Below, one piece after another: positions 10,765-60,565 of a DNA stretch of 64,000 nt. Below the pieces are notes generated by a model that worked only from the letters and a program-made list of their open reading frames with translations, had not been told where the DNA came from and did no database searches. Source of the stretch: a virus; IMG/VR virus record IMGVR_UViG_3300032323_003671, positions 1-64,000 of that record. The stretch is one strand, 5' to 3'. Within the stretch, counting starts at the first letter, position 1; each line of letters begins with the position of its first letter. The position numbers and the translations under genes are program-made.

Positions 10765-11370
10765 ATGGAAAGAGAAAAAACAATAACTCATTATGAGGAA
10801 AATCCTATTACAATTTCAATTAAAAATCCAACAAACGAACAAAAAAAATGGGTTTTATTTGGGACAAATGTATTTTTACATGAAGATAATTTTGGTTCGG
10901 ATGAAGGATTAAAAATTGAGAATAATGGTAATTATTCATATCAATCAATTTTACAAGATTTATCAAGCAAAAAAATACCAATAAGTATGTTGAGAATAAT
11001 GACTGACGTTAAAGTCAATTTTAATCAATGTATTTATTTTGAAAAAATAACTAATAGTACAAAACAGTTTTCTTCTGATAAAATATCTGAACATCTTGAT
11101 CGATATCAATTTCAATCAAATATAATTCAAATGCCATGCAGCCTATTTTTAGATAAAGAACATACAATATCTGGAAAAATAGAACCTAATTCACAAATGA
11201 TTTTCTCATTTTATTCTCCAAAATTAGAATCTGAAGAAAAAACTAAATCCAGAAAAATTATCAAGAAAGAATATTTTTTACTTCGAATGGCAAGAAATAT
11301 TTATTCAAAAACGAAAACATTTAAAACAAAATTATTGACTTTAATAAAAATAAATAAGCATGGAAAATGA
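10765..11370 (+). CDS. early-region paralog of the candidate major capsid protein
   Basis: NPITISIKNPT...VLFGTN...FG...SYQSIL...DRYQFQSNII aligns with 37422 NPYVIQYVNST...VLFGYN...FG...SYAALI...DAYQFQSDIL. Confidence 0.7.
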   Translation: MEREKTITHYEENPITISIKNPTNEQKKWVLFGTNVFLHEDNFGSDEGLKIENNGNYSYQSILQDLSSKKIPISMLRIMTDVKVNFNQCIYFEKITNSTKQFSSDKISEHLDRYQFQSNIIQMPCSLFLDKEHTISGKIEPNSQMIFSFYSPKLESEEKTKSRKIIKKEYFLLRMARNIYSKTKTFKTKLLTLIKINKHGK

Positions 11371-11638
11371 AACAACTAAACCATTGACACTTGGAGAACA
11401 GAGATGTCACATTGACTTCAATCCTTCAGCAGATGATAAGATTGGAAAATTCAAAAGAATGATGGCTGATGCTATTGACTTTCTTAATCAGGAAGATAAA
11501 GACACAGAATTAAGAGGAGATGAATATATGGAGCAAGCAAGATGTTTTAAAATCGCAATGGAACATTTAGAAACAGCTCAAATGTATGGCGTTAAAGCAA
11601 TTTCCAAATCACTTAAAGTAACCAATAAAAATAAATAA
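11360..11638 (+). CDS. Acb2/Tad1-like helical hairpin protein (candidate cyclic-nucleotide sponge)
   Basis: TLGEQR..FNPS...ARCFKIAMEHLETAQMYGVKAI resembles the Acb2/Tad1 C-terminal hairpin. Confidence 0.5.
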   Translation: MENETTKPLTLGEQRCHIDFNPSADDKIGKFKRMMADAIDFLNQEDKDTELRGDEYMEQARCFKIAMEHLETAQMYGVKAISKSLKVTNKNK

Positions 11639-16722: not shown

Positions 16723-16918
16723 AAGACATATACTTAAAGCGATATCTTATAGAATGTTAGGTACGCTTCAAACAATGACTATTGGATATTTCTTTACAGG
16801 AAGTTTTATCATTTCAGGATCTATAGGAATAACTGAATTGTGCGTAAAACCAATGATATACTTTCTTCACGAAAGATTTTGGTACAAGTACGTTAAGTTT
16901 GGATTGGATAAAAAATAA
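16715..16918 (+). CDS. DUF2061 small membrane protein
   Basis: KRHILKAISYR.LGT...K..IYFLHERFW. Confidence 0.85.
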   Translation: MLKRHILKAISYRMLGTLQTMTIGYFFTGSFIISGSIGITELCVKPMIYFLHERFWYKYVKFGLDKK

Positions 16919-16953
16919 AAAGGGAGACTACTATTATTCATCTCCCCAGTTTT
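16917..16953. terminator. probable bidirectional intrinsic terminator
   Basis: GGGAGA...TCTCCC stem with A-tract before and T-tract after, between convergent transcription units. Confidence 0.7.
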
Positions 16954-17190
16954 GTTCCTAAGCTACTGCTCGTAGTTTAGGAAACATTTCAATAACGTTT
17001 CCGTTTATTTTTTTTGTTGACCAAATTCACACCTCTTTCTAACTGTCAAAACCAACGACATCCCCAATGAACTTTGGTAGGTTTGCAAGATGCCTAACTA
17101 CCAGTTGACAAACACTTGTGGAGATGGAGGGATTCGAACCCTCGTCCAAATTAGCGACTAATGTCAATTCGATATTTCTATCAAGTCAAC
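16919..17190 (-). ncRNA. ssrA: circularly permuted (two-piece) tmRNA
   Basis: Acceptor piece ~17190-17119 ends GGACGAGGGTTCGAATCCCTCCATCTCCA; coding piece starts GGGGATG..GGTTTTGAC at 17065; acceptor stem has G3.U70; tag GNVIEMFPKLRAVA* at 17002-16958. Confidence 0.9.
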
Positions 17191-17193
17191 GTT

Positions 17194-17201
17194 CAAAGAT
17201 A
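17194..17201 (-). promoter_or_regulatory. TAnnTTTG promoter for the tmRNA
   Basis: TATCTTTG on the - strand, 3-4 nt before the acceptor piece. Confidence 0.7.
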
Positions 17202-17207
17202 AAATAA

Positions 17208-17771
17208 TTATTTTGATTCAGGTCTAGTGTAATACCAAAAAGCAAGAGCAAAAGCTGTTAAGCCTAATCCAATTGCAATATTACGATACTGAGTGGCAGT
17301 CAATCCTGATTTGTTGAAAGTATCGTTAGATGGGCTATATCGAAAATGCCAATCTTCTCCGATTGATTTTCCTTCATCCCACATCCAACCATATTTCTCA
17401 CCATTTTTCTTTACCCAATCTTGTGCAGATTTTGGATATAAGTCAATAGCTAATCCATAACCATGATTTGATTTACAACCTTTTGAAGTGGATGGATCAG
17501 CTGCAACTGCATTTTTGCCAGCTTTATATTTTTCCCACAGACACCATTGTGTAGCACCACCTTTGCAATTACGCTCAGTGTAGTCTCCTTTTCGACCACA
17601 TTTACGATAAGAAGATACCAAATTAAAAGTTACTCCAGAATCCTCTGCAGCAGCTTTCATTCTCAAATAAGAATCGGCAGCAGTTTTGAATAAAGCATGA
17701 TTACCTCCAACACTTTTTAATACAGAGCTAGATAGTTTACCATTCTCACCGATTCCTTCTTTGTATGCCAT
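17208..17771 (-). CDS. M15B (VanY-like) D,D-peptidase with C-terminal TM anchor
   Basis: SSYR...SNHGYGLAID...EDWHFRY; hydrophobic C-terminus. Confidence 0.88.
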   Translation of the reverse strand: MAYKEGIGENGKLSSSVLKSVGGNHALFKTAADSYLRMKAAAEDSGVTFNLVSSYRKCGRKGDYTERNCKGGATQWCLWEKYKAGKNAVAADPSTSKGCKSNHGYGLAIDLYPKSAQDWVKKNGEKYGWMWDEGKSIGEDWHFRYSPSNDTFNKSGLTATQYRNIAIGLGLTAFALAFWYYTRPESK

Positions 17772-18241
17772 TATTTTACAGTTGTAACGACAGTTTTATC
17801 AGGTTTCATAATCGTAAACTCTACTCTACGATTTTTATCTCTACCTTCTGAAGTTTCATTACTTGCAATTGGCATGGATTCTCCTTTTCCATCGGTAGCG
17901 ATTCTTGAAGCATCAACTCCTTTAGAAACTAAATAATTAGAAACTGCAATGGAACGTTTTTTAGAAAGTTCTAAATTGCTTGCATCACTACCAACGTTAT
18001 CGGTATGTCCAACAATTTTAATTTTCCAGGTTGGTTCTTTCACCAGTACATCTGCTAATTCATCTAAAAAAGGAAAAGATTCCGCTTTGATAATTGCTTT
18101 ACCATATTCGAAATTCAGATTATCAAACACATCTCTCAATGTTTGTTTGTCGGTCTTGCGATATTTAGTATAGTACCAAATACCTCCAATTAATAGAAGT
18201 ATTACTGCGCCAAGTGCGATTTTTTGATTTTTTTTCATCAT
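17771..18241 (-). CDS. OmpA-like peptidoglycan-binding protein with N-terminal TM
   Basis: GHTDNVG...NLELSKKRS..V..YL...G.GES.P...N.....R..NRRVEF. Confidence 0.93.
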   Translation of the reverse strand: MMKKNQKIALGAVILLLIGGIWYYTKYRKTDKQTLRDVFDNLNFEYGKAIIKAESFPFLDELADVLVKEPTWKIKIVGHTDNVGSDASNLELSKKRSIAVSNYLVSKGVDASRIATDGKGESMPIASNETSEGRDKNRRVEFTIMKPDKTVVTTVK

Positions 18242-18924
18242 GCTACTTTCAAATCGTTTACTGCGATATCTAATGATCCATTTTTGCCAAGCATCTTTTT
18301 AATGTAACCAGCAGTGATTGCTGGTACTGAAGTAACAACTTGTGCAGTATCTTTATTTGCTATTCCAGTGTTATTGAATCCTTTCAAGCCCCAATTGTAA
18401 AGGGCAATGATTCTATCCATACGGATAGCACCATTCGTAGTACCCCAAGGCTTATCCATATACTGTCCTAAAATGATAGAACCAATCAAAATGTTTAATT
18501 CGGGATTCATTTGATCCTGCATAGTCAACTTTCTTGTATTACCTTTTGCATCAAAAGTTATTCCGAAAGATTTTAGCTTTTGTTTTTCAAATTCTGATAG
18601 ACGACCTTGATTAAATTCTTTTGTCAAGGTAAAGTCAGGATTTCCTGTTCCTGCAACAAATTGTCTATTCCATTGCATTAAGCCAGTAGTTGGAGAATTA
18701 TTTTGTGATCCTGCAGTTGGATTACCATTTGATTCAACCATAGTGAATGCCAAAAGAACAGCAGGTGGGATTCTAGAACTTTCGCCATATTGTTTAAAGA
18801 ATGTACCATACTTAGACCATACATCTTTCATTTGTTTTGCTAGAGCTTCACGACTTGAATACCAATTACTAGGACTTACTAGATTTGGATTTTTTTGAGG
18901 AACGGATAGTGTATAAGTAGCCAT
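18238..18924 (-). CDS. SLT-family lytic transglycosylase
   Basis: VESNGNP, GLMQ, NPELNILIG, ALYNWG. Confidence 0.88.
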   Translation of the reverse strand: MATYTLSVPQKNPNLVSPSNWYSSREALAKQMKDVWSKYGTFFKQYGESSRIPPAVLLAFTMVESNGNPTAGSQNNSPTTGLMQWNRQFVAGTGNPDFTLTKEFNQGRLSEFEKQKLKSFGITFDAKGNTRKLTMQDQMNPELNILIGSIILGQYMDKPWGTTNGAIRMDRIIALYNWGLKGFNNTGIANKDTAQVVTSVPAITAGYIKKMLGKNGSLDIAVNDLKVA

Positions 18925-19193: not shown

Positions 19194-22100
19194 TTGAAAA
19201 AGATAAAAAAAACTAGCGATGCCAAGGATGGAGGACTATTTGTTGGCAAATCACATGACGATGGTGGGATTCCTGCTATAGTTGTAGATACTGGACAACC
19301 TATTGAGGTTGAAGGTGGTGAAGCTATTATTAATAAAAAGGCCACAGCCAAACACTGGAAAGAATTATCAAAAATCAATCAAAGTACTGGTGGCGTTCCA
19401 ATTCCTCCTCCTGATCGAGCAGATGAACTTATGGACAAGTTTGAAAAGGGAGGAAAGTTAACTCAATTGGAGAAAAAAACTATTCACAACAAGTGGAAAA
19501 ACTTGGTGAATATGACATACACTGAATTGAGAAAGTATTATGATTCCAAAGATGGCAAAACTAGTGGCTTAACTCAAAAAGAAGCTGATGATTTAGGTAT
19601 TGATTCAGGTCGTGAAAGTGCTGTATGGATCATGAAAATGAAACGCACAAACTACAAGGATTGGACACCTGAAATGTGGCGTTGGGCTAAAAAACAAATA
19701 AGTTTTATATCTCGAATGAGAGGTAACCAAGGCGAGTTAATGGAAAATGGCAGAAGAACTCCAAAATTAAAATCATTATTGATTTGGGGTCATAATCCTT
19801 ACAAATATGCAGGAGGCGGAGACATTCCAGCTGAAGCAAAGTATCCAGTTGATGCAAATTCTCTTCAAGTAATGCTTAAATATGCATCAAAAGAAGATGC
19901 ACCTGCTATTCAGGAACAAATAGCCAAACTTAAACAAGAACATAAAGAAAAGTACCAAAAGAATCGGAAAAAATATAAAGGAGGTGGTAAACCATCGGAT
20001 ATTGCCTCTGCAATACTTGGATTGAAAGCACTTTTGAAATATCCAGAATTACTAGAAAAATTTGATAAGGAAAATATAGAATACACTATCAAAGGATTAG
20101 AAATTCTTGATAAAATGCATCCTTCTGAAATTGATCCTAACGATACAAGTAGTGGAGTGAAATTTATTCCATACAAGGATTACGAAATAATGTATGATCC
20201 ATATACTAAAAACTACTATGCTAACGATGCTGAATTTGATTCTTTAGAAGATGCAAAAGCATTTTTAGATTCAGGTAAAATTTCTGATTCAATTAGAGGT
20301 GCAATGCATTATGAAGTGTATGGATATTCAAAAGGTGGGTCAGTAAATAATCAAACACTTTTAGCACCAAATGGTAAACCAACTAAATTAACTCCAGAAC
20401 AATACAAATTAGTTCGTACACCAGAATTCAAAGCCTGGTTTGGAGATTGGGAAAATGATCCTGAAAGCGCAAGTAAGGTAGTTGATAGTAATGGTGAGCC
20501 TAAAATATATTATCAAGGCGTACCATATTATCTATATCCTAATGGAAAATTTATTTACGAAAAAGATAATAATGGAATATTTTTTACATCTGATAAAAGA
20601 ATCGCTTTAACATATGGGGTAGTAAAAGAAGTATTCATCAATTGCAGAAATCCAAAAGATATCAGAAATTATTTTGGATTCGATGGTAAAAAAATACCGA
20701 ATAGTGTCAGAAATGATAGAAACTATGATTTTAAATCGGAAGAAGAAATCCAATATGCCAATTCAGATAAAGAAGTCATTAAATTTTATAAGGAAGTTAT
20801 CAATAAGTATGGTAAACCCATTGAAATAACTGTTGATTCTACTGGTGAAAAATTCAAATTTAAGAGTGTAGAAGAAATAAAAAAATTCTTAATTCCAACT
20901 TCAGAAAAAGGATTTTCATTTTTGAATTTTACACGTAGAAGTCTTTTTTGGAATTGGATAGCAGAATATATTAAAAATTCTGAATACGATGGGATATTTG
21001 CAACTGATGAAGATCGTCTTTCTGAAGAAATATCAGATAGTGTAGTTGTTTATAATTCTAATCAAATAAAACTTGCAGATGGAACGAATACTACTTTTGA
21101 TTCTGAAAATCCTGATATTCGATTTGAAGATGGAGGATCAGTAAATAATCAACCACTTTTAGCACCAAATGGTAAACCAAGTAATCTATCGCCAGAACAA
21201 TACAAATTAGTTCGCACACTAGAATTCAAAGCATGGTTTGGCGATTGGGAAAAATTGATTCAAGTCAAAATGAATGATTCTGCTATAGATGAAATTTCTC
21301 TGAAAAAAATATCAGATACAGTAAGTAAGGTCGTGGATTCAAATGGCGAACCTATGGTGGTTTATCACACAACTGACAAAGAATTTTTTATTTTCGATAA
21401 AAAAAAATCAAAAGAAGGATTCTTTTTCTCACCTCAAAAAGAAAGACTTTCAGTATATAATAAATCAAAAATAGGTCAGTATTTTTTAAATGTAAAAAAT
21501 CCTTCTCACGAATTGTTTAAATCAGATGTGAATTATATTTTATCGAAAGGATACGATGGAATTATGGATTATGGCCATGCAAGAAAAATAAATGAATCCT
21601 TGTATGAAATAATTGTTTTCGAACCTAATCAAATAAAACTTGCAGATGGAACGAATACTACTTTTGATTCTGAAAATCCTGATATTCGATTTGAAGATGG
21701 TGGCAAGACTGATTTAACATACAAAGAAAAATACAACAAGAAATATGGGTATGATTTGGATAAGTCTCACAGTCTTGAAGAAATAGCATCAAAAACAGGT
21801 ATTTCACTTGAAGGGCTTCAAGAAATTTTCAATAAAGGTGTGGGTGCTTATAGAACAAATCCTGAAAGCGTTAGACCAAATGTAAAATCTCCAGAACAAT
21901 GGGGAATGGCTAGAGTTTATAGCGCAGTCATGGGCGGTAAAACAGCAAAGATAGATTCAAAAGAACTTAAAATGGAAGGCGGAGGCAAAACCGATTCAGA
22001 AATGAATATAGAAAGATACGTTGTCAAACCTAGAGTAAAATTTGGGATGGTATTTGGGTATGTTGTTTACGATAATTTAGAAAAAAAGAATTTGCCTTAT

Positions 22101-22607
22101 GATTATGATGAAGATGAACAATGGAAAGCTCAATCAAAAGCAGATTTACAAAACGAATTGGAGAAAAATCGTTTAAATAAAATGGAAGAAGGTGGCGTAA
22201 CAGATAAAAAAGATACAGTAACCTTAGATATTCCATTACTCATAAGATTATTAGAATTATCAAGAGAAGACATTCAATCAGATGCTGACTTACACAAGGT
22301 TGTAGAAAATATGCTCGATTTAAAAAATAAGGAGGTCTTAACAATGGAGGATTATGATAAAATTTCTCAAATCGCAAAAGAAAAATTAATTTCCCAAGCG
22401 CATTATAATTTGACAAGAAAACAAGGCCGACCTGAATACGCACCGAATTCACGTGAAATTGAAGCAGAGATTGAAAGAATGATAAATACAGAAAAATCAA
22501 AATTTGCCGATGGTGGAATACTAGAATCTGATACAATGGTAGTTCTACAATCACCAACTGAAATGTTGGATGAAATCAACTTTAATGCACAATTTAAACC
22601 AGAATAA
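19194..22607 (+). CDS. modular polyvalent protein (DUF3140-like, two ART-PolyVal-like, DUF5824-like modules)
   Basis: VNMT..EL...SLLIWGHNP; two copies of RT.EFKAWFGDWE...KVVDSNGEP...NQIK; TGISL...GVGAY...EQWGMARV; modules separated by [FYM]xxGG. Confidence 0.75.
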   Translation: MKKIKKTSDAKDGGLFVGKSHDDGGIPAIVVDTGQPIEVEGGEAIINKKATAKHWKELSKINQSTGGVPIPPPDRADELMDKFEKGGKLTQLEKKTIHNKWKNLVNMTYTELRKYYDSKDGKTSGLTQKEADDLGIDSGRESAVWIMKMKRTNYKDWTPEMWRWAKKQISFISRMRGNQGELMENGRRTPKLKSLLIWGHNPYKYAGGGDIPAEAKYPVDANSLQVMLKYASKEDAPAIQEQIAKLKQEHKEKYQKNRKKYKGGGKPSDIASAILGLKALLKYPELLEKFDKENIEYTIKGLEILDKMHPSEIDPNDTSSGVKFIPYKDYEIMYDPYTKNYYANDAEFDSLEDAKAFLDSGKISDSIRGAMHYEVYGYSKGGSVNNQTLLAPNGKPTKLTPEQYKLVRTPEFKAWFGDWENDPESASKVVDSNGEPKIYYQGVPYYLYPNGKFIYEKDNNGIFFTSDKRIALTYGVVKEVFINCRNPKDIRNYFGFDGKKIPNSVRNDRNYDFKSEEEIQYANSDKEVIKFYKEVINKYGKPIEITVDSTGEKFKFKSVEEIKKFLIPTSEKGFSFLNFTRRSLFWNWIAEYIKNSEYDGIFATDEDRLSEEISDSVVVYNSNQIKLADGTNTTFDSENPDIRFEDGGSVNNQPLLAPNGKPSNLSPEQYKLVRTLEFKAWFGDWEKLIQVKMNDSAIDEISLKKISDTVSKVVDSNGEPMVVYHTTDKEFFIFDKKKSKEGFFFSPQKERLSVYNKSKIGQYFLNVKNPSHELFKSDVNYILSKGYDGIMDYGHARKINESLYEIIVFEPNQIKLADGTNTTFDSENPDIRFEDGGKTDLTYKEKYNKKYGYDLDKSHSLEEIASKTGISLEGLQEIFNKGVGAYRTNPESVRPNVKSPEQWGMARVYSAVMGGKTAKIDSKELKMEGGGKTDSEMNIERYVVKPRVKFGMVFGYVVYDNLEKKNLPYDYDEDEQWKAQSKADLQNELEKNRLNKMEEGGVTDKKDTVTLDIPLLIRLLELSREDIQSDADLHKVVENMLDLKNKEVLTMEDYDKISQIAKEKLISQAHYNLTRKQGRPEYAPNSREIEAEIERMINTEKSKFADGGILESDTMVVLQSPTEMLDEINFNAQFKPE
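21058..21700 (+). repeat. 76-bp identical direct repeat (21058-21133 = 21625-21700) in the duplicated ART-like module
   Basis: CTAATCAAATAAAACTTGCAGATGG...GATTTGAAGATGG occurs twice; module 5' ends (~20340 and ~21138) are also near-identical. Confidence 0.9.
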
Positions 22608-22610
22608 TAA

Positions 22611-25600
22611 ATGGAAGCCCAAGATATTCAAAAACAGGTAGAAGAAAGATTAAAAGCTCAACAAGAAGGCAAGGAATTCAAAGACATTGGTAAGGTTGCA
22701 TATACTAAAAAAGAAATGGCAGCCTACAGATTAATATCATCAAAAATGCTTGTGGATTTAGAAGTAGATCCTACAATAGCATTTAACATGGTCAAAAAAG
22801 AAAATGTTTGGCCTGCATATAATGTTCAAGAATTAAAAGAAAAAGGTGTTTCTAGTGGTGCTGCATTTATGATGGTTAAATTAAGGACATCAGTTCCTAA
22901 TAAACCTGAAAACTCTCCAAATAAGAGATCAAGTTATGTTCATTTTTTAGAATTACTTCAATCAGATTTACAAAAGTGTATGACTTACTCTGATGTTTAC
23001 AATTTGGCTCAAGAGTATCAAAAAATGCCATTGGATAAATTGATTGAATACTTTATCGATCCATCTATTTTCCAGATGGATGAAGAAAATAGAATACTTG
23101 TTTTAGAAAAAGCCAAAAATAATCCTTCTATTCAGAAATTTACAAGTCGAGGATCTATATATAATTTATTTAAAGAAGTATTTGCAACAACATTTGCAAA
23201 TCTCATTTTTAACAAGACAGATGCAACTAATGCAGTATGGTATCAAGCTAGAGAATTTGCAGCACTTTCAGAAGAAGATTCTAAAACGCTTATTGACAAA
23301 CAAATTGAATCGACAAAAAAGCAAGTAGAAGAAAATAATGCTGAAATTGAAAAAATCAAATCTGCATCATTTTCAGAACTAAAAAAAATAGCTGAAAAAT
23401 ATTACAGATTAAGTTCAGCAGCTAAAAAAATATACTATAGTGATCAACCTAAGTTGATGGAATTTCTATTAGAAACCTTTCAAAGGAAAAATCAAAGGAG
23501 GGAGCTTGAACTTGCGGCATACAAACAAAAATATTCTCCAAGGTTAGAGGATTGGAGTTGGTTTGAAAAACCTAAAACTGAATCAGATACTCCAACAAAA
23601 AAGAGAGAGAAATCTATTAATACCAAAGAACCTTTATCTTATATAAAAAGAATAGGTGGATATAAAATAAACACTGTCAAGGCACAAGAAATTATTGATT
23701 TATTTGGTTTTTCAGCTGTCAATTATGGAAAATATGTTGATGATGCCTGGTCGAAGCAACACACTAAACATTTTTTAGGTGCAATTTCAGATTTAGGTGA
23801 TGTTTTAAACATTGATATTAAAAAAGTAAATGAGATAGGTGGATTGTCTATTGCTTTTGGTGCGAAAGGTATTGCTGGACACATGGCAACATATTTTTCT
23901 CAAAGTCATGATATAAATCTTACTAGAGGAAATGGAGATGGTTCAGTTGCTCATGAATGGGGACATTATTTTGATAACATACTTTGTGATTTATCTGAAA
24001 AGAAAGCAGAACCAAAATTTGCATCAGCATCAAAAGCTGATAACGCAAGTATATCTGATATAGTTTCAAAAATAATGAACTTTATTTATAAAGGAGATCC
24101 AGAATATACCCCTAGAATTCCAATGACTTTTTATGCCAAAAAGTCTAGTTCTGTACCTTCGTATTATAGTTATAAATATGGCAATCAGTCTATAAAAATT
24201 TTAGATACTATTGAAGAAACGTTAGATCAGTATTTAGATTTAGCAGAAGTAAATAGAGATAGATATAATACTCAGTTAAGAGTTTTTGGATATATCATCG
24301 ATGCCTTCGGTTTGGATAAATATTTGATTCCTATGAAATTGACTACAAGTTATCACTTTCATAAATCTGCTTATTTTTCTTTCGTTTATTCAGGCACAAA
24401 AGAAAATGGTCAGCCTGCAATAATTACTGGTACAAGATCAGCCTATTGGACAAAAAATGTTGAGTTGTTTGCAAGAGCTTGGGAAACAGTAATTCTTAAA
24501 AAATTACTAGACAAAAATAGAGTTAGCAACTATTTAGTTGCTGATATTAATATGCAAGATGTCATTGATGAAAATTGGTTTCAACCTTATCCACAAGGAA
24601 AAGAACTTGAATATCTTGAAACTTTAATTGATGAACTAATAGATGCATTCAAATTAGTTTATTCGGTGGGAGATTTCAATCCACCAAGTAGTATCAGAGA
24701 GGATGAATATTTAGATTTATCTCCGAATACAGATGAAGGTAAAACTGAATCAGGAATGGTAATTGATAAATCAACCGAAACAAAAACAACAACTTTTATT
24801 GAAAACGATAAGGTAGTTGAACAAATTAAAAAACCAAGAAAACCTAGAACAAAGAAAACCGAAGCTGTCTCTCCAGAACCAAGTGTGGCAGCAATTGAAG
24901 AAAATTCTCTAGAATTACAAGAAGATGAAGAACCAAAAGTAGAAGAAATGCAAGAACAAGTAAAAAATGAATCGATTGACGATTCTCAGATAAATGTTTC
25001 TCTTTATGCAAATAATTGGAATCAAGTTCCTATTCGATGGAAAAATGTCAAAGGTATTCGTCCAATAGTAGTCAGTTTAAATCCATTTGATAAAAACCTA
25101 TTAAGTCTTGCAAAAATTATTGTCAATACAAACATTAATTTCACCCCAAAACCAATTTTTAGTGCAATGTCTTTTGATAGCTCTGGAGTAACTTTTACAG
25201 ATGCAAAGAAATTAGTTCATATCGCAGGTGAAAACATAGATTACACAGGAAACTATCCTACTTCTGAAACATCAAAATTTTTTCCAGGTTCAATTGAAAA
25301 ACAAACCAAAGAATTGAATGCTATTCAATATCCGAATTGGAGATCGATAGTACCTAAAGAAAGCAAAGTAGAAAAAATAGAGATTGATAAACTTTATCAG
25401 TATGTTGTAGTTGCACTAAACTATGCAAACAAAATAAATCATACCATTGGATTTAAGTTTAGCAATTCAGATTTTATTGGATTTGATGGTGAGTTTCTAA
25501 AAGACATTTTAGAAGTACTTATGAAACTGCAACATACCAAAGATATCTATGTTCATTGGGCAAGTTCAAGTAGAGCTGTTTTATTTAGTTATGAAAAATC

Positions 25601-27032
25601 AATTGACATTGAAAAATCAACTTATGCGTTATTAATGCCGATGATGTTGCATGATGGTATTAATCAATTAGGTGCATCAGATATTGATTACAAAAAAGAT
25701 TTGAATTGTTATTTTGATTTTTCTGATAATCAAATTTATAATGCCGATGGATCAGTAGCAGACTACAAAGAAAACTATGGAGATGCACCAGGAATGTCTT
25801 TGAATTTAATTTCAATGTTCGCTTCTTTCTTAAAATCAAGTAAATCAAAAAAAGACGCATATTTTTATAGCTACATAAGAGTAGATAACGATAGTATATT
25901 GGTTTCTGATAAGAATACAAGACTTGAAATTCCAAATGATTATGATTTAATAACAGGTCTTTATACTATTGAGAACAATGTTTTAATTCGTGATATTTCT
26001 GCAGATATAGATAACTATTCACTCGAAAAGAGAATAGCTACAAAAGATCCGATATTTGTTGCTAACACAGAGCAATTGCTTTTTTATATGAACAAAATGT
26101 CAAATCACCTATCTGATGATGATGATTTCAGACCTAAATTATCTGGATATATTTTTGAGAAAAAAGATAATCAAGTAAATGCAGTATCTACAGATGCTCA
26201 TACTTTGATCAAACTTGATATCACAAATGCAATTGAATCTTCAATCGATGAATTCAATGTAATTCTTGGGAATGCCACAACATTAATGAATGTTTCAAAA
26301 TCTTGGGATTCAAAAAAAGTTGCGGTTTACATTGATAGTAAGGAAGAAAAATATCGTATCGTTTCAGATAGAATTCATTTTGAAGGTAAATTATATGACA
26401 AAGGCGTTACAAATTGGCGAGCAGTAACTCCAAACATTGTAAATAATCAATTGAAATTTAATGTTAAAGATTTATTCTCTTGTTTGACTAATCCCGAACT
26501 TAAAAAGTATGCCGATAAATTCGGATCAAAAGTAAAAGACCTAGCTTTGTATAACAACTTTAATGAAGTTTATGCGATTTATGATGCAAAAAACAATAAT
26601 GAAAGTATCAAAGTTTGTGATTTAAAATTAAATCATACTGAAATAAACGAGTTGTTTAATATCAATGAATCTTATGTTTTAATAATGCCTGTTGTATTTA
26701 CGAATGGAAATTATTTCAATTTAGGAATAGGCAAACTTGAAGATGTAATGAATTCTATTGGTAAAGAAGAATGTACAGTAGTATATAAGGAATTAAATAG
26801 TGGCTATGTCTTCACTTCTGAAAATCTTTATTACAAAAACTCGGATGTTTACAAACCTGAGAAACCTAAAAAAGTTCAAAAACCAGTTGTCAAACCATCT
26901 GAACCTACTAATCAAAAGCAAGAAATATTAGATGCTTTAACTGGTGCGAAAACACTACTAAAATACGTATCAGGAGAGGATAAATCAAATCTTTCGGCTT
27001 ATATTAGAGGACTTGAAATCCTAATGAAATAA
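22611..27032 (+). CDS. large polyvalent protein: zincin/LPD1-like region plus beta-clamp-like repeats
   Basis: AHEWGHYFD and ELFARAWE; C-half YPNWRSIVP, IGFDGEFLKDIL, LLMPM, DDFRPKLSG...VSTDAHTL. Confidence 0.7.
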   Translation: MEAQDIQKQVEERLKAQQEGKEFKDIGKVAYTKKEMAAYRLISSKMLVDLEVDPTIAFNMVKKENVWPAYNVQELKEKGVSSGAAFMMVKLRTSVPNKPENSPNKRSSYVHFLELLQSDLQKCMTYSDVYNLAQEYQKMPLDKLIEYFIDPSIFQMDEENRILVLEKAKNNPSIQKFTSRGSIYNLFKEVFATTFANLIFNKTDATNAVWYQAREFAALSEEDSKTLIDKQIESTKKQVEENNAEIEKIKSASFSELKKIAEKYYRLSSAAKKIYYSDQPKLMEFLLETFQRKNQRRELELAAYKQKYSPRLEDWSWFEKPKTESDTPTKKREKSINTKEPLSYIKRIGGYKINTVKAQEIIDLFGFSAVNYGKYVDDAWSKQHTKHFLGAISDLGDVLNIDIKKVNEIGGLSIAFGAKGIAGHMATYFSQSHDINLTRGNGDGSVAHEWGHYFDNILCDLSEKKAEPKFASASKADNASISDIVSKIMNFIYKGDPEYTPRIPMTFYAKKSSSVPSYYSYKYGNQSIKILDTIEETLDQYLDLAEVNRDRYNTQLRVFGYIIDAFGLDKYLIPMKLTTSYHFHKSAYFSFVYSGTKENGQPAIITGTRSAYWTKNVELFARAWETVILKKLLDKNRVSNYLVADINMQDVIDENWFQPYPQGKELEYLETLIDELIDAFKLVYSVGDFNPPSSIREDEYLDLSPNTDEGKTESGMVIDKSTETKTTTFIENDKVVEQIKKPRKPRTKKTEAVSPEPSVAAIEENSLELQEDEEPKVEEMQEQVKNESIDDSQINVSLYANNWNQVPIRWKNVKGIRPIVVSLNPFDKNLLSLAKIIVNTNINFTPKPIFSAMSFDSSGVTFTDAKKLVHIAGENIDYTGNYPTSETSKFFPGSIEKQTKELNAIQYPNWRSIVPKESKVEKIEIDKLYQYVVVALNYANKINHTIGFKFSNSDFIGFDGEFLKDILEVLMKLQHTKDIYVHWASSSRAVLFSYEKSIDIEKSTYALLMPMMLHDGINQLGASDIDYKKDLNCYFDFSDNQIYNADGSVADYKENYGDAPGMSLNLISMFASFLKSSKSKKDAYFYSYIRVDNDSILVSDKNTRLEIPNDYDLITGLYTIENNVLIRDISADIDNYSLEKRIATKDPIFVANTEQLLFYMNKMSNHLSDDDDFRPKLSGYIFEKKDNQVNAVSTDAHTLIKLDITNAIESSIDEFNVILGNATTLMNVSKSWDSKKVAVYIDSKEEKYRIVSDRIHFEGKLYDKGVTNWRAVTPNIVNNQLKFNVKDLFSCLTNPELKKYADKFGSKVKDLALYNNFNEVYAIYDAKNNNESIKVCDLKLNHTEINELFNINESYVLIMPVVFTNGNYFNLGIGKLEDVMNSIGKEECTVVYKELNSGYVFTSENLYYKNSDVYKPEKPKKVQKPVVKPSEPTNQKQEILDALTGAKTLLKYVSGEDKSNLSAYIRGLEILMK

Positions 27033-27059
27033 ATAATAACTTTGTTAAAATCTTTTAAA

Positions 27060-27524
27060 ATGAATATTGCAGAAATCAAATCAGACATTCGAGATCTTGA
27101 AGCAGCTATAAAATCTCCTCAAACTCCAGATAACTTTAAAGAAAAAATGAAAGCGCAAGTTGAAGTTCTTAAAGTTAAACTTGAAGAGGCCGAATCCAAA
27201 GCCAAAGAACCAGCACCTGCTGAACCAAAAATTGAGCCGAAAAAAAAAGGTGTTCCATTACCTAAAGATCAACAACAAAAAGTTGAATACGATTGTGATG
27301 AACTAATTGCTCAGGCAAAGGCTAGACGTAAAGCAGCTAAAGAGCGTTCAAAAGCTCCTAAAAAAACCGAAGCGACAAAGAACAAAGAAAAAATCGAAAC
27401 AGTATTTGATAATGTGAAAAAACGTGCAGACGAAAAAGACATTTCAAAAGCAGAAATTGAAAAGCTAATTTCTGAGACAAAAACATTATTAAAATTATTA
27501 GAGACTAAATTATCATCTCTTTAA
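27060..27524 (+). CDS. K/E-rich coiled-coil protein
   Basis: Likely start ATG 27060. Confidence 0.7.
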   Translation: MNIAEIKSDIRDLEAAIKSPQTPDNFKEKMKAQVEVLKVKLEEAESKAKEPAPAEPKIEPKKKGVPLPKDQQQKVEYDCDELIAQAKARRKAAKERSKAPKKTEATKNKEKIETVFDNVKKRADEKDISKAEIEKLISETKTLLKLLETKLSSL

Positions 27525-27541
27525 AATCAAAAGTTCTTATC

Positions 27542-30073
27542 ATGGAATATAAATTGAAATTTGAAAATGGTCGCAGTTGTGAAATTTACTGTGAATCAGA
27601 TGGCAAACCTTTGCAAGATAAAATAAATGCTGCCGAAGAAAGATTTGGTAGTAAAGTAAAAACCATCAATGGCAAAGAAGTAACTGAACATGGTCTTGGT
27701 GGATTCTTAGTTGGTGCGATTATCGGTGGTTTAGCTGGTAATTCTGTATCCAAACAAGGCGTTAAAAAGACTATTAAATCAGTAGGTACAGAAGCCAAAA
27801 AAGTTGTCAAGAAAACAACAACAATTGCAAAAAAAGCAGTTGATGCAGTAAAAAAAAAAGAAGCACCAAAAAGTAAAAAATCAAACTACGTTCCAAATAG
27901 ACTAATTGATTCAATAGAAACAAAGTCAGGAAAAAAGATTGATAATAAGGATATTATCGATGGCGCACATACTAAAAAGAAAATTTTAGTTTCTAAAAAA
28001 AGAGTTGCATCAACTCCAAAAGATATCGATAAAGAAAAAGCACTTAAACTTCAAAGTGATTATCTATCTGCTAGAGAAATTAAAGTAGTAAACACTACCT
28101 ATGGTCGTAAAATCAAAGGATCTGAAATCATTGATGGTGCATACGTCAAAAAAGGTGTTTTTGCCGATGGTGGTTCAATAGAAGGGTTCAATTGGAAATC
28201 ATTTACCATATCTGAGCTTATTGAAGTTCTACCAGAAGATGTTCAATTTCTTTATTTCCAAAGACCTGATAAAAAAGAGTACATTAATTATTCAGATGTA
28301 TTGAAAGATAAATCATTATTGAATACTACATGGACTATTTCAGATTCTGGAGACATGAGTTTATCAAAAGGTTCTGAAAACTTGTACTTGGACATTGTAG
28401 TTTATGATCAGGCTACACGATCAGAGCAAGAAAATAAAATATCAATTTACACAAAAGATAATCATTCAGGATTGAAGAAGTTTGCATCTTCTTTAATTGA
28501 GAAATTCAAATCAGGCGGTAAAACAAAAGATAAATATGAAGGAGATATTGTAGAAATACGTCCTGCTTCTAAAAAATCAAACAAATTCATTATTTGGTCA
28601 GTTAAAAATGATATGATTTGGGCTAATGAAAAATTTGATTCAGTTTCTGAAGCCAAAGAATTTATTGAGCAAAACAAATTAGTTCTAAAAGACTCTTCAA
28701 TCTTTGAAGGCGGAGGCAAAACCGACTATCGCTATGAATACATGTTATTAGATCGTTTACGTCAAGACAATGATTACTTCCTAGGTTTCGGTGCTAGAAA
28801 TCCAAATAGATTGTGGGCAGGTAATGTAGACGAACAAATAGCCGAAATGAAAAAATTGTATAATAGTCTGCCTGAAAAGCCTGAATGGATTACCATGGAG
28901 GATATCGAAGAATATGAACGCAAAATGAAAACCGAAGAAATGGCTAAAGGTGGTGTGATTGGCGACAGTGGTACAATTACTGACACCAAAAGCATGTATC
29001 AAGGAAAGATGGGATTCATTGAGATGGACATGGGCAACGAATGGATTGTTAAAGTTCTGGATAATGGTAAAGAAAAAAGCGTAACAGTTCGTAAATCTGG
29101 ATTTAAAATACTTGAAGACGAAGAGTTTGGTGATGGTGGCAAAACTTCTAAAGAATATAAAATCTTTGAAGGATTTGATCATCTAAAAAAGAAAAATGTC
29201 TATCGAGTTATTGGTGTAGAAAACGATTATGTTGGTGAATGGCATAATACTCGTGAAGAAGCTCAATCTGAGATTGATTCAATGAGTCAAAAATTTGCAT
29301 CAGGTGGGATTGTAGGCAAGGACGTTACATTTAACCACTGGTCTGGTGATATTCGAAAAGGTATCATTACAGAGCAACTTGAAGATGGCCAATATGCAGT
29401 AAGTTCTGGTTATGGTTCAGTTTTAGTTAGTCCTGATGATATAATCTCAACAAGTGAAAGAGTTCCGCAAAAGAAATTCTTAGGAATTTTTGAAAAAGGC
29501 GGTATCGCAAATGATAAAAAAAAGTATGCTAAAGGTGGCAGCATAACATTTTCAGAAGATGATCAAGAAGGATTTGATTATTGGATTGAAGATGGTAATG
29601 CAAGAAAAAATGCAGATGGTACTTATTCCACACAAGATGCTCAATATCGAAATAAATTAACTTTAGATGAGTTAAAAAGATATTTTGTTAAAGAGTATTT
29701 GCCTGATAGCGATTATTTGAATCCAAGAGTTGAATCAAATCTTTTGACTGATGAAGAAAATGATACCTTAAATGAAGAATTAGAATCATTTGAAGACCTA
29801 ATTGATTACAAGGATATAAATACCTTCAGTTCGGGAGGGAATATGAATCACACTATGATTTTGTTAGATAATGGTCATATTTTGACTATTAATTGGGATT
29901 CAAAAGATGTTCAGTATTCTTTAGAAACATATCCTTCTATTGAGCAATATGCTTTTTCAGAAGATGGAGAATCAGGTTGGGATAATGAGTACTACACAGA
30001 AAACTCTGAATCTAGAATGAGTAACTTAAATGATGAAAGTTTATATTCATTTCTTTACAGATTGGTTGATTAA
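27542..30073 (+). CDS. modular polyvalent protein with LPD11-like and SH3-like modules
   Basis: YMLLDRLRQDNDYFLG.G.R...LWAG.V.EQI..MK.L.....EKPEWITME; about nine [FYM]xxGG spacers. Confidence 0.75.
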   Translation: MEYKLKFENGRSCEIYCESDGKPLQDKINAAEERFGSKVKTINGKEVTEHGLGGFLVGAIIGGLAGNSVSKQGVKKTIKSVGTEAKKVVKKTTTIAKKAVDAVKKKEAPKSKKSNYVPNRLIDSIETKSGKKIDNKDIIDGAHTKKKILVSKKRVASTPKDIDKEKALKLQSDYLSAREIKVVNTTYGRKIKGSEIIDGAYVKKGVFADGGSIEGFNWKSFTISELIEVLPEDVQFLYFQRPDKKEYINYSDVLKDKSLLNTTWTISDSGDMSLSKGSENLYLDIVVYDQATRSEQENKISIYTKDNHSGLKKFASSLIEKFKSGGKTKDKYEGDIVEIRPASKKSNKFIIWSVKNDMIWANEKFDSVSEAKEFIEQNKLVLKDSSIFEGGGKTDYRYEYMLLDRLRQDNDYFLGFGARNPNRLWAGNVDEQIAEMKKLYNSLPEKPEWITMEDIEEYERKMKTEEMAKGGVIGDSGTITDTKSMYQGKMGFIEMDMGNEWIVKVLDNGKEKSVTVRKSGFKILEDEEFGDGGKTSKEYKIFEGFDHLKKKNVYRVIGVENDYVGEWHNTREEAQSEIDSMSQKFASGGIVGKDVTFNHWSGDIRKGIITEQLEDGQYAVSSGYGSVLVSPDDIISTSERVPQKKFLGIFEKGGIANDKKKYAKGGSITFSEDDQEGFDYWIEDGNARKNADGTYSTQDAQYRNKLTLDELKRYFVKEYLPDSDYLNPRVESNLLTDEENDTLNEELESFEDLIDYKDINTFSSGGNMNHTMILLDNGHILTINWDSKDVQYSLETYPSIEQYAFSEDGESGWDNEYYTENSESRMSNLNDESLYSFLYRLVD

Positions 30074-60098: not shown

Positions 60099-60565
60099 TA
60101 GATAAGAATAGTTAAAAGATTGATAAACGATTGAAAAGGAGTTAATCCTGTAGTATCAATTGCAACTGCATCAGATATTTCAAAAGGAGAAGGTTGTTCA
60201 AAATAGTCTACAAAGTATTCTTCTCTACCTCTTTTTTCTGAACAATGGACGTATATTTCAACACCACCTACTTCTTTGCAGAAATCCATTCTCTGATCAC
60301 GAAAAGGACTAACCATACAAACGATAACAATAATATCGTTTTGGATTAGAAATCGGCAACAAGATTGAACCAAGTCAACGTTTTTCAATCTACCTTCTTT
60401 GGAGTAGTCTTGATTCTTAAAAATGTCTCTGATATTATCACCATCGAGAATGACAACTTTTTTTCCAATTTCAAATTTGTCGATGTGTTCTTTTAGCAAA
60501 TTAGCTAAAGTGGTTTTACCAGCACCAGGTTGGCCAGTAAACCAATAAAGGTTTCTTAATTCCAT
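60098..60565 (-). CDS. cysC: adenylylsulfate (APS) kinase
   Basis: WFTGQPGAGKTTLA, LDGDNIR, YSKEGR..N, VSPF...R. Confidence 0.9.
   Translation of the reverse strand: MELRNLYWFTGQPGAGKTTLANLLKEHIDKFEIGKKVVILDGDNIRDIFKNQDYSKEGRLKNVDLVQSCCRFLIQNDIIVIVCMVSPFRDQRMDFCKEVGGVEIYVHCSEKRGREEYFVDYFEQPSPFEISDAVAIDTTGLTPFQSFINLLTILI

What the first reader, a model, noticed from the sequence alone, without database searches (positions are those of the whole stretch)
16919..17201. Circularly permuted, very compact two-piece tmRNA in a virus
Seen on the - strand, in order: TATCTTTG promoter; acceptor piece (GUUGAC...CUAAUU, T-arm GAGGG-UUCGAAU-CCCUC, CAUCUCC-A ending 17119); ~50-nt intervening segment with a UGGUAG/CUACCA hairpin; coding piece from 17065 (GGGGAUG, D-loop GGUUUUGAC, AGUUAG...GUCAAC pairing back to the acceptor piece); tag (A)GNVIEMFPKLRAVA* with a hairpin over the stop; terminator. 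G3.U70 alanine identity is intact, CCA is not encoded, and there is little room for pseudoknots. Established: permuted tmRNAs are known from alphaproteobacteria, some marine cyanobacteria and some betaproteobacteria; typical Bacteroidota tmRNA is one-piece with a GENNYALAA-like tag. Inference: an independent permutation or foreign capture that may redirect ribosome rescue and degradation.
Basis: partly seen in the sequence, partly recalled or inferred. Interest (0 to 1): 0.85.

Follow-up and report, generated by a model that had tools for sequence, protein, structure and literature searches.

The report
Two-piece tmRNA gene in a phage
This is a real, rearranged (two-piece) version of the ribosome-rescue RNA tmRNA carried by a phage of Bacteroidota, one member of a widespread phage family of such genes that looks like a stripped-down offshoot of the host's ordinary tmRNA.

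Summary
Confirmed. Rfam tmRNA_permuted (RF04321) scores 61 bits against a cut-off of 47.

It is not a one-off. The same kind of gene is annotated in Chryseobacterium phage MA9V-3 and three crAss-like Suoliviridae genomes. It also occurs in 43 of 70 IMG/VR loci found with the T-arm pattern. Across these homologs:
- acceptor pair 5:68 takes all four Watson-Crick forms;
- the helix next to the tRNA-like domain co-varies;
- the tag frame is kept with synonymous changes.

The tRNA-like 3' half is identical to one-piece tmRNAs of Bacteroidota (50 of 50 exact genome matches; 45 ARAGORN standard, 0 permuted). It is unlike the alpha-type phage tmRNA of Melnitz. No permuted tmRNA was found in 151 sampled genomes of that phylum.

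So this is most likely an independent, phage-borne permutation of a Bacteroidota tmRNA, with no room for pseudoknots and its own conserved tag. Two-piece phage tmRNAs are already published, which makes the kind known. Expression, processing and charging remain untested.

The parts
17194..17201 (-). Bacteroidota-type -7 promoter box candidate TATCTTTG (TAnnTTTG)
   Evidence: Read in the sequence. It lies 4-10 nt upstream of the first paired bases. The motif is not enriched in the window. It is present within 80 nt upstream in 8 of 36 unique homologs. The consensus itself is recalled.
17119..17190 (-). Acceptor piece, about 72 nt. It holds the 3' strands of P2 (GUUGACU 17190-17184, GAAUU 17170-17166, ACAUU 17164-17160, CUAAUU 17154-17149), a GAUA-GAAA-UAUC hairpin (17182-17171), the T-arm (17143-17127), the acceptor 3' strand CAUCUCC (17126-17120) and discriminator A (17119). 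CCA is not encoded.
   Evidence: The 29 nt at 17147-17119 are identical to Bacteroidota tmRNA 3' ends. The 5' end is inferred, not measured.
17066..17118 (-). Intervening segment of 53 nt, predicted to be excised, with a hairpin at 17103-17075
   Evidence: The lower stem co-varies and the upper part is sequence-conserved in the 6 closest sequences.
16910..17065 (-). Coding piece, about 155 nt. It holds the acceptor 5' strand GGGGAUG (17065-17059), the D-loop remnant (17058-17045), the P2 5' strands (AGUUAG 17044-17039, GGUGU 17033-17029, AAUUU 17027-17023, GGUCAAC 17022-17016), an A-rich linker (17015-17003), the tag ORF and the 3' hairpin.
   Evidence: The 3' end is inferred from the T run.
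16958..17002 (-). Tag reading frame GGA...GCU (GNVIEMFPKLRAVA) plus stop UAG (16960-16958). The stop lies in the pairing CUAAACU (16980-16974) / AGCUUAG (16964-16958).
   Evidence: ARAGORN. The frame and peptide pattern are conserved in 19 unique homolog tags, with synonymous codon changes.
16910..16947 (-). 3' hairpin (stem GGGGAGA/UCUCCCU, loop of 11-13 nt) followed by UUUUUAUUUUUU: a likely intrinsic terminator
   Evidence: The stem co-varies and the loop is nearly invariant in the closest relatives. The terminator scan does not call it.

Best explanation
The locus is a functional, circularly permuted ssrA gene of a phage that infects a member of the Bacteroidota.

Shown here:
- The gene order is acceptor piece, spacer, coding piece on one strand.
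- The tRNA-like domain is complete, with G3.U70 and discriminator A.
- A multi-segment P2 helix joins the two pieces.
- The tag frame is conserved among homologs.
- There is family-wide covariation.
- The tRNA-like domain is Bacteroidota-type.

Inferred:
- One precursor of about 280 nt is made from its own promoter, or by read-through from the SLT/OmpA-like/VanY genes upstream on the same strand, and ends at the 3' hairpin.
- Host RNase P cuts 5' of G17065.
- The 3' end of the acceptor piece is trimmed to A17119, and the host CCA-adding enzyme adds CCA, as it must for the host tmRNAs, which also lack an encoded CCA.
- The two RNAs (about 75 and 155 nt) stay paired through the acceptor stem and P2.
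- Host AlaRS charges the RNA with alanine, and host SmpB carries it to stalled ribosomes. No smpB is present in the 73-kb record.
- Translation resumes at GGA (17002) and appends A-GNVIEMFPKLRAVA.

The RNA has no room for the pseudoknots of ordinary tmRNAs. The phage probably uses it to keep ribosomes free during infection, when mRNA is being broken down or host tmRNA runs short. The tagged products carry a phage-specific tag that still ends in the usual hydrophobic-Ala-type C-terminus.
For: - **Detection:** ARAGORN permuted call with tag. RF04321 at 61 bits against 47, and again when the whole record was searched.
- **Fold:** the unconstrained MFE gives the expected architecture, z -3.15.
- **Acceptor stem:** among 29 unique homolog pairs, pair 5:68 is C-G in 11, G-C in 8, U-A in 7 and A-U in 2. 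cr114_1 changes pairs 5 to 7 together. Caveat: positions 1-4 were fixed by my search pattern.
- **P2a next to the tRNA-like domain:** at least 5 consecutive pairs in 24 of 29 cognate pairs, against 21% of 806 non-cognate combinations. At least 6 pairs in 17 of 29, against 8.8%.
- **Window's whole P2:** cofold gain -12.3 kcal/mol, against -5.1 +/- 2.1 with foreign partners; 0 of 34 were as good.
- **Tag:** 19 unique tag sequences share G-[KN]-V-I-x-M...R-x-x-A. Gly uses GGA/GGC/GGT, Ile uses ATT/ATC/ATA, and the final Ala uses all four codons. Length is 14-18 codons, always in frame.
- **Host-type tRNA-like domain:** 50 of 50 exact matches of the 29-mer are in genomes named as Bacteroidota; 45 of 50 are ARAGORN one-piece tmRNAs, 5 have no call, 0 are permuted.
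- **Sequence comparison:** 36 of 38 identical to the Apibacter tmRNA, with a similar sequence upstream of the resume codon and a tag beginning G-N.
- **Host phylum:** the neighbouring OmpA-like gene has its best cellular relatives in genomes of which about 70 of 80 carry Bacteroidota names (taxonomy of the names recalled).
- **Other samples:** near-identical copies span the whole stretch in contigs of two other studies, with 7 and 8 differences in 701 nt. The four differences inside the gene lie outside the main helices.
Against: - No RNA evidence of any kind exists, so transcript, processing sites, CCA addition, charging and tagging are all inferred.
- The promoter box is no more than chance would give in this A+T-rich window. 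The terminator scan finds nothing.
- The whole-P2 energy test across the family is mixed. The cognate partner is best in only 7 of 35, and in 9 of 35 it is worse than at least half of the foreign partners.
- Homologs were collected with a pattern taken from the window's own T-arm and acceptor strand. Conservation of those bases therefore proves nothing, and the census is biased.
- Pseudoknot 1 is considered important in E. coli tmRNA (recalled), so an RNA without it might work poorly or differently.
- No capsid, portal or terminase was recognised in the record. 'Virus' rests on the IMG/VR label and on phage-like genes.
Confidence: 0.85

Rival explanations
1. Foreign capture: the gene was picked up ready-permuted from a bacterium or phage of one of the three classical two-piece lineages (alpha-, betaproteobacterial or cyanobacterial type).
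For: Those lineages and their phages are the only published sources of permuted tmRNAs (PMC11915505 Results section read; PMC9004378 passages read). RF04321, which was built from them, still detects the window.
Against: - The window's family scores only 50-65 bits on RF04321, against 113 bits for the alpha-type Melnitz gene.
- The window's T-arm and acceptor strand have no exact match outside Bacteroidota-named genomes (50 of 50).
- Melnitz has a reduced T-loop and an encoded CCA, and aligns poorly with the window (local score 13 against 34 for the Bacteroidota one-piece tmRNA).
- Only one alpha-type sequence, and no beta- or cyano-type sequence, was compared directly.
Confidence: 0.05
2. It is made but does not tag. 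It acts as a decoy that soaks up SmpB or AlaRS and shuts down host trans-translation, as proposed for the TLD-only RNA of mycobacteriophage DS6A, or it is a decaying gene.
For: It lacks all pseudoknots. DS6A-like molecules inhibit tmRNA (PMC4131195 and PMC11915505, passages read).
Against: The tag frame is kept open and in frame in 19 unique homolog tags, with synonymous substitutions and a conserved C-terminal Ala. A decoy or a pseudogene would not preserve this. The A-rich sequence upstream of the resume codon resembles that of the host gene.
Confidence: 0.07
3. The acceptor piece is only an attP-type copy of the 3' end of the host tmRNA gene, as carried by phages that integrate into ssrA, and the rest is coincidence.
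For: Phages and islands that integrate into ssrA carry such 3' fragments (PMC4383910 abstract in the search listing; PMC9004378 passage). The 29-mer is identical to host genes.
Against: - An attP copy does not explain a matching 5' acceptor strand 53 nt downstream that co-varies with it in homologs.
- It does not explain the P2 complementarity, the conserved tag frame or the full-length Rfam and ARAGORN calls.
- No integrase was seen among the ORFs scanned.
Confidence: 0.02
4. The contig is not a virus but a piece of a bacterial genome or another mobile element, so the gene is a cellular or plasmid-borne tmRNA.
For: No capsid, portal or terminase was recognised in 55 ORFs scanned with PHROGs and 67 with Pfam. 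Polyvalent proteins also occur on conjugative elements (recalled).
Against: - The record is an IMG/VR virus record with DnaB, RusA, methyltransferases, three endolysin-type genes, a weak holin match and many PHROG families.
- There is no rRNA, no tRNA and no cellular housekeeping set.
- Family members sit in isolated or complete phage genomes.
- 0 of 151 sampled genomes of the phylum carry a permuted tmRNA.
Confidence: 0.05

Closest known systems
tmRNA genes annotated in Chryseobacterium phage MA9V-3 (PV245944) and in the crAss-like Suoliviridae genomes cr50_1, cr114_1 and cr10_1
   Same: All are ARAGORN permuted calls and RF04321 hits of 49.6-64.7 bits. They share the T-arm and acceptor type, have no encoded CCA, and have a short distance from the D-loop to the resume codon. 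MA9V-3 shares the tag start GNVI and the sequence around the resume codon.
   Different: The spacers differ in length (53 nt here; about 60 to 214 nt there), and in cr114_1 the spacer holds a tRNA-His. The crAss-like tags are of another type (GN.F.VTDYT...). Flanking genes are unrelated: none of 6 window proteins matched the flanks of 78 loci. The GenBank records call them tmRNA without noting the permutation.
Two-piece tmRNAs of marine phages (Melnitz, pelagimyophages, cyanophages; PMC9004378)
   Same: A phage-borne permuted ssrA with acceptor piece first, found by the same tools.
   Different: - Melnitz is alpha-type: reduced T-loop, encoded CCA, 113 bits on RF04321, about 66 nt between the D-loop and the resume codon, and an ...YALAA-type tag. 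A glutamine riboswitch is reported in its 3' part (paper).
- The window is Bacteroidota-type, has 42 nt before the resume codon, and has no Rfam riboswitch hit.
Bacterial two-piece tmRNA (Caulobacter; alpha-, betaproteobacterial and cyanobacterial lineages)
   Same: A circularly permuted gene. The two RNAs are held together by the acceptor stem and P2. Processing by tRNA enzymes is presumed.
   Different: Those coding pieces typically keep pseudoknots PK1 and PK2 (PMC3985003, passage read); here there is room for neither. Those are cellular genes of other phyla.
One-piece tmRNA of Bacteroidota (tags such as GENNYALAA, 370-410 nt)
   Same: The 29-nt T-arm plus acceptor 3' strand is identical, CCA is not encoded, and the 5' strand, D-loop remnant and the sequence before the resume codon are similar.
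   Different: - The host genes are not permuted.
- Their resume codon lies 91-102 nt from the 5' end, against position 64 of the coding piece here.
- They have four-pseudoknot-sized bodies and 8-10-residue ...Y/F-A-L/M-A-A tags.
Mycobacteriophage DS6A TLD-only RNA
   Same: A phage-borne, strongly reduced tmRNA derivative.
   Different: DS6A has no tag frame (PMC4131195 and PMC11915505, passages read). The window has a conserved one.

Membership tests
tmRNA (ssrA) | tRNA-like domain: 7-bp acceptor stem with G3.U70, discriminator A, and a T-arm with a GGUUCGAAUCC-type loop | tested here: met
   Read in the sequence, aligned by RF04321 and folded without constraint.
tmRNA (ssrA) | Internal tag reading frame with no start codon, ending in a hydrophobic/Ala C-terminus, and conserved in relatives | tested here: met
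   ARAGORN tag. 19 unique homolog tags are in frame, with synonymous changes and a terminal Ala in 19 of 19.
tmRNA (ssrA) | Scores above the curated Rfam threshold | tested here: met
   RF04321 at 61 bits against 47. RF00023 (standard form) gives only a partial 31.3-bit match to the acceptor half, below its threshold of 47.
tmRNA (ssrA) | Charged with alanine, bound by SmpB, and active in trans-translation | not testable with these tools
No smpB is present in the 73-kb record, so host SmpB would be needed.
tmRNA (ssrA) | Pseudoknots flanking the tag frame (PK1 upstream; PK2-4 downstream). These are typical rather than strictly defining. | tested here: not met
   Only 13 unpaired nt lie between P2 and the resume codon, and only 10 nt between the stop and the 3' hairpin. 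The D-loop-to-resume distance is 30-45 nt in 34 of 36 unique homologs, against about 77 nt in the Apibacter gene. No pseudoknot predictor was run.
Permuted (two-piece) tmRNA gene form | Acceptor piece upstream of the coding piece on the same strand, separated by a spacer | tested here: met
   The same order is seen in 43 of 70 IMG/VR loci by ARAGORN (34) or by my parse (9 more).
Permuted (two-piece) tmRNA gene form | The precursor is cut into two RNAs that stay base-paired | not testable with these tools
   No RNA run holds the locus. The pairing potential is shown by covariation and by the fold.
Alpha-, betaproteobacterial or cyanobacterial permuted lineages (RF01849-RF01851) | Descent from one of these three lineages, shown by sequence affinity of the tRNA-like domain and lineage-specific structure | tested here: not met
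   The exact 29-mer occurs only in Bacteroidota-named genomes (50 of 50). The window aligns poorly with alpha-type Melnitz. RF04321 scores are half those of Melnitz. The three older models never appeared above threshold; their sub-threshold scores were hidden by clan filtering. Beta and cyano types were not compared directly.

The most novel reading that the evidence does not exclude
Phages of Bacteroidota carry their own lineage of two-piece tmRNA. On this reading it arose by a separate circular permutation of the host phylum's one-piece gene, a further origin beside the alpha-, betaproteobacterial, cyanobacterial and mitochondrial ones. It has shed every pseudoknot yet still tags. It also encodes a conserved 14-18-residue tag (G-K/N-V-I-x-M...R-A-V-A) unlike the host's GENNYALAA. 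The phage would therefore run ribosome rescue on its own terms during infection, and could give rescued proteins a different fate from host-tagged ones.
Probability: 0.45. Interest if true: 0.65.

Novelty: new variant of a known kind. Interest (0 to 1): 0.5.

Why it matters
Three reasons, if the inferred function holds.

- **Minimal design.** A natural, tag-encoding tmRNA with no pseudoknots and only about 230 nt in two pieces would be a ready-made minimal system. It could be used to ask what PK1 and the pseudoknot ring are really needed for.
- **Evolution.** The permutation of ssrA would have happened again, this time in phages, from a phylum whose cells all keep the one-piece form. That would make gene permutation a recurrent outcome rather than a rarity.
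- **Phage biology.** The family occurs in crAss-like gut phages and in environmental Bacteroidota phages, and it carries a conserved tag that differs from the host's. This makes testable the idea that phages take over ribosome rescue, for example while host mRNA is being degraded or cleaved by defence nucleases.

Against this, two-piece phage tmRNAs are already in print, standard tools find this gene, and its relatives are already annotated. The advance is in recognising the lineage and its architecture, not in a new kind of molecule.

Tried and rejected
- **RNA evidence:** no RNA holder is listed. One run is labelled RNA-Seq, but the tool itself marks it 'probably DNA'. It gave a 466-nt contig over 16909-17373; contigs cannot show transcript ends, so nothing is claimed from it.
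- **Relatives of a virus record:** cannot be drawn.
- **Supplement Table S2 of PMC11915505** (taxonomic breakdown of permuted forms): not visible. The held copy shows only the covariance-model files and is cut. It may already list phage or Bacteroidota-associated permuted forms.
- **Sharkady & Williams 2004 (PMC516066):** not held.
- **Literature searches:** 'permuted tmRNA'+phage; tmRNA+crAss-like; tmRNA+bacteriophage+Bacteroidetes+'tag peptide'; tmRNA with names of Bacteroidota phages; 'two-piece tmRNA'+phage. They turned up only passing mentions of a tmRNA in Cellulophaga phage Calle (PMC8776804) and Maribacter phage Panino (PMC11590407). None describes a permuted Bacteroidota-phage lineage.
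- **Tag-region pattern:** 0 hits in genome contigs and 4 in IMG/VR, which are the closest relatives already in hand.
- **Intervening-hairpin pattern in IMG/VR:** 115 or more hits, but only 2 were next to a tmRNA T-arm.
- **Synteny:** the flanking proteins (RusA, two small ORFs, VanY, OmpA-like, SLT) gave no tblastn hit in the flanks of 78 homolog loci.
- **Phage identity:** two putative structural proteins had no tblastn match in 50,697 phage records. The ESM Atlas look-up of the 415-aa ORF gave nothing usable.
- **An alphaproteobacterial comparison gene via a 'Caulobacter sp.' MAG:** no permuted match in that genome. Melnitz was used instead.
- **Pseudoknot between the conserved 3'-hairpin loop and tag codons 3-4:** considered by eye and dropped, because the changes in relatives are not compensatory.
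Full report
**What is in the sequence**

On the - strand the region reads, in order:
- a TATCTTTG box (17201-17194);
- an acceptor piece from about 17190 to the discriminator A at 17119, holding the T-arm GAGGG-UUCGAAU-CCCUC (17143-17127) and the acceptor 3' strand CAUCUCC (17126-17120), followed by CAA rather than CCA;
- a 53-nt spacer (17118-17066) with the hairpin UGGUAG...CUACCA (17103-17075);
- a coding piece that opens with GGGGAUG (17065-17059, so G3 faces U70), continues with a D-loop remnant ending in GAC (17045), and then has four stretches complementary to the 5' part of the acceptor piece;
- an A-rich linker, and a frame from GGA (17002) through 14 codons to UAG (16960-16958);
- a hairpin (16947-16921) and a T run.

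ARAGORN finds one gene in the whole 64-kb window, a 'tmRNA*' at 16867-17210(-) with tag GNVIEMFPKLRAVA*. That the asterisk marks the permuted form is recalled from ARAGORN's conventions. The only Rfam family above threshold in the window is tmRNA_permuted (RF04321): 61 bits against 47, E 2.3e-9, full model length.

Folded without constraints, 17192-16908 gives these helices:
- acceptor stem and T-arm;
- GUUGACU/GGUCAAC, GAAUU/AAUUU, ACAUU/GGUGU and CUAAUU/AGUUAG;
- a GNRA-type hairpin GAUA-GAAA-UAUC in the acceptor piece;
- the spacer hairpin and the 3' hairpin.

The energy is -75.5 kcal/mol against -62.1 +/- 4.3 for shuffles (z -3.15; 1 of 200 shuffles as good).

TAnnTTTG occurs 115 times in the window against 102 +/- 9.6 expected, so the box is only suggestive. 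The terminator scan reports nothing, because the hairpin's loop is longer than its limit.

**Context**

The window is part of a 73,262-bp IMG/VR virus record that CheckV rates 48% complete. G+C is about 29-37%.

The gene lies at the end of a short leftward block: an SLT-type transglycosylase (18238-18924), an OmpA-like protein (17771-18241) and a VanY/M15 peptidase (17208-17771), between rightward blocks. The record also holds DnaB, RusA, DNA methyltransferases, endolysin-type genes, giant polyvalent proteins and many PHROG families of unknown function. I recognised no capsid, portal or terminase among 55 ORFs scanned with PHROGs and 67 with Pfam. No SmpB is encoded.

The OmpA-like neighbour has its best cellular relatives (46-59% identity) in genomes of which about 70 of 80 carry Bacteroidota names, many of them Chitinophagales and Sphingobacteriales (taxonomy of the names recalled). 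Near-identical DNA spans the whole stretch in contigs from two other studies, one labelled freshwater, with 7 and 8 differences in 701 nt.

**It belongs to a family**

A blastn of the locus against 50,697 phage records matched only the T-arm region, in 17 records. Among them were features annotated 'tmRNA' in Chryseobacterium phage MA9V-3 and in the crAss-like Suoliviridae genomes cr50_1, cr114_1 and cr10_1. In each of these the T-arm lies near the start of the annotated gene. ARAGORN calls all four permuted, and RF04321 scores them 49.6-64.7 bits.

A scan of IMG/VR with a degenerate T-arm/acceptor pattern returned 70 loci. ARAGORN of them permuted, 18 standard and 18 nothing. My own parse looks for the acceptor 5' strand plus a D-loop motif downstream of the T-arm. 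It finds the permuted order in 42 of the 70, which adds 9 that ARAGORN missed or miscalled and misses 1 that ARAGORN calls. The union is 43 of 70. The closest relatives are four contigs (L007, L009, L067, L074), with tags such as GNVIEMYPQLRATA, and L055.

**Do pairing and tag frame hold in homologs?**

*Acceptor stem.* Among 29 unique sequences, pair 5:68 is C-G in 11, G-C in 8, U-A in 7 and A-U in 2. cr114_1 has pairs 5-7 all changed and all still paired. Positions 1-4 and U70 were fixed by my pattern and prove nothing.

*Helix next to the tRNA-like domain (P2a).* At least 5 consecutive pairs occur in 24 of 29 cognate pairs, against 21% of 806 non-cognate combinations. At least 6 occur in 17 of 29, against 8.8%. 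The helix sequences are quite different from one another.

*Whole P2 by cofolding.* The result is mixed. The mean gain is -8.8 kcal/mol for cognate pairs against -6.3 for non-cognate. The cognate partner is best in 7 of 35, and in 9 of 35 it is worse than at least half of the foreign partners. The window itself is clear: -12.3 against -5.1 +/- 2.1, with 0 of 34 as good.

*Six closest sequences.* The spacer hairpin and the 3' hairpin keep their stems through compensatory changes (12 of 45 predicted pairs show at least one double change).

*Tag.* The 19 unique tags of the subfamily are 14-18 codons long, always in frame, and share G-[KN]-V-I-x-M...R-x-x-A. Synonymous variation is plain:
- Gly uses GGA, GGC and GGT.
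- Ile uses ATT, ATC and ATA.
- The Leu of the closest relatives uses CTA, TTA, TTG and CTT.
- The final Ala uses all four codons.

That is selection on a translated peptide.

**Where it came from**

The window's exact 29-nt T-arm plus acceptor 3' strand occurs in 50 loci of the species-level genome collection, all in genomes with Bacteroidota names. ARAGORN finds a standard one-piece tmRNA of about 370-410 nt, with GENNYALAA-type tags, in 45 of them. It finds nothing in 5 and a permuted gene in none.

Against the Apibacter mensalis gene, the window's 3' half is 36 of 38 identical. The 5' strand, the D-loop remnant and the sequence before the resume codon (…AUAAC-N-GG-N-AAC, tag starting G-N) are alike.

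The published alpha-type phage gene of Melnitz (MZ577097) differs throughout:
- It scores 113 bits on RF04321, against 50-65 bits for this family.
- It has a reduced T-loop and an encoded CCA.
- It gives a best local alignment score of 13 with the window, against 34 for the Bacteroidota gene.

In 151 genomes sampled evenly from that phylum, RF04321 found no match above threshold. The 8 best sub-threshold matches (of 21) all lie at standard one-piece genes.

The simplest reading is a separate permutation of a Bacteroidota tmRNA that now lives in phages. Two limits apply. Only one alpha-type gene, and no beta- or cyano-type gene, was compared. The homolog set is also biased by the pattern used to collect it.

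**Architecture**

The mature RNA would be about 75 + 155 nt. Only 13 unpaired nucleotides separate P2 from the resume codon, and only 10 separate the stop from the 3' hairpin. There is no room for PK1 or PK2-4.

This holds across the family. The distance from the D-loop GAC to the resume codon is 30-45 nt in 34 of 36 unique sequences, against about 77 nt in the Apibacter gene and about 66 nt in Melnitz. Classical two-piece tmRNAs typically keep PK1 and PK2 (PMC3985003, passage read). No pseudoknot predictor was available, so 'none' is an inference from space and from the nested fold.

**How it most likely works**

See the best explanation. All steps after transcription rest on what is established for tmRNA and for Caulobacter's two-piece form, not on data from this phage. 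These steps are RNase P cleavage at G17065, 3' trimming and CCA addition at A17119, alanylation through G3.U70, delivery by host SmpB, and tagging with A-GNVIEMFPKLRAVA.

In 8 of 36 homologs a TAnnTTTG box lies 26-63 nt upstream of the GGACG that opens the T-arm region. In others the gene follows tRNA genes directly, which suggests co-transcription with tRNA arrays.

Why a phage keeps the gene is open. It might sustain ribosome rescue while mRNAs are being destroyed, or give rescued products a phage-chosen tag. The tags still end in A/V/L/T-A like ordinary degradation tags.

**What is known already**

- Two-piece tmRNAs in phages are published. PMC9004378 counts 53 two-piece forms among 133 unique phage tmRNAs, mostly marine (passages read).
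[quoted passage not shown] Its taxonomic table was not visible to me.
- Papers on flavobacterial phages mention a tmRNA gene only in passing (PMC8776804 and PMC11590407, passages read).
- Five searches found no description of a permuted, Bacteroidota-derived phage lineage or of its lack of pseudoknots.

**Verdict**

This is a genuine permuted tmRNA gene and a member of a known kind, found by standard tools. It belongs to a sub-lineage that appears not to have been described: phage-borne, of Bacteroidota descent, without pseudoknots, and with its own conserved tag. Interest is moderate.

Noticed in passing
L004 1542-1614 (cr114_1, NC_055897); L003 1877-1947; L005 1766-1831: In crAss-like phage cr114_1 a 63-bit tRNA-His lies inside the spacer of the permuted tmRNA gene. 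In cr50_1 and cr10_1 a tRNA follows the coding piece directly. PMC11915505 describes a tRNA inside a tmRNA intervening sequence as a unique feature of one nominally archaeal MAG.
   Followed up: partly
L003 858-1024; L004 1018-1185; L005 126-304: RAGATH-22 and RAGATH-9 RNAs (97-156 bits, above threshold) lie a few hundred bases upstream of the tmRNA genes of the three crAss-like phages (L003, L004) or about 1.1 kb upstream (L005).
   Followed up: no
window 17075-17103 (-): In the spacer hairpin the lower stem co-varies, but the upper part (AGUUAGGC...CAAACCU) is sequence-conserved in the 6 closest sequences. This is odd for a segment that should be discarded. It may be a processing signal or a binding site.
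   Followed up: partly
window 16921-16947 (-): In the 3' hairpin the stem co-varies, while the 11-13-nt loop (GAAUAAUAGUAG) is nearly invariant in the five closest relatives. That is more than a plain terminator needs.
   Followed up: partly
window 11360-11638 (+): A 92-aa ORF matches the Acb2/Tad1 hairpin domain (PF24729, 30.1 bits against 27). It is a candidate sponge for cyclic-nucleotide immune signals.
   Followed up: no
window 19194-30073 (+): Three consecutive giant ORFs (1137, 1473 and 843 aa, interrupted only by a 160-aa ORF at 27042-27524) carry polyvalent-protein domains: ART-PolyVal, DUF5824, LPD1, a DNA pol III beta-like segment and LPD11.
   Followed up: no
window 62551-63054 (-); 51940-52764 (+); 60098-60565 (-): An ORF with an RNA polymerase alpha C-terminal domain (60 bits), a sulfotransferase and an APS-kinase-like protein: possible transcription take-over and sulfation functions.
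   Followed up: no
window 30000-58000 and L333 (record 64001-73262): No capsid, portal or terminase was recognisable by Pfam or PHROGs. Two mid-sized ORFs (33348-34514 and 39211-40458) have no tblastn match in 50,697 phage records. The structural module, if present, is very divergent.
   Followed up: partly
L026, L034, L032, L048, L049, L071 (IMG/VR loci): In several homologs the permuted tmRNA follows tRNA-like T-arm/acceptor sequences within about 40-60 nt, which suggests it sits in tRNA arrays. ARAGORN's tRNA calls in L048 and L049 overlap the start of the tmRNA.
   Followed up: no
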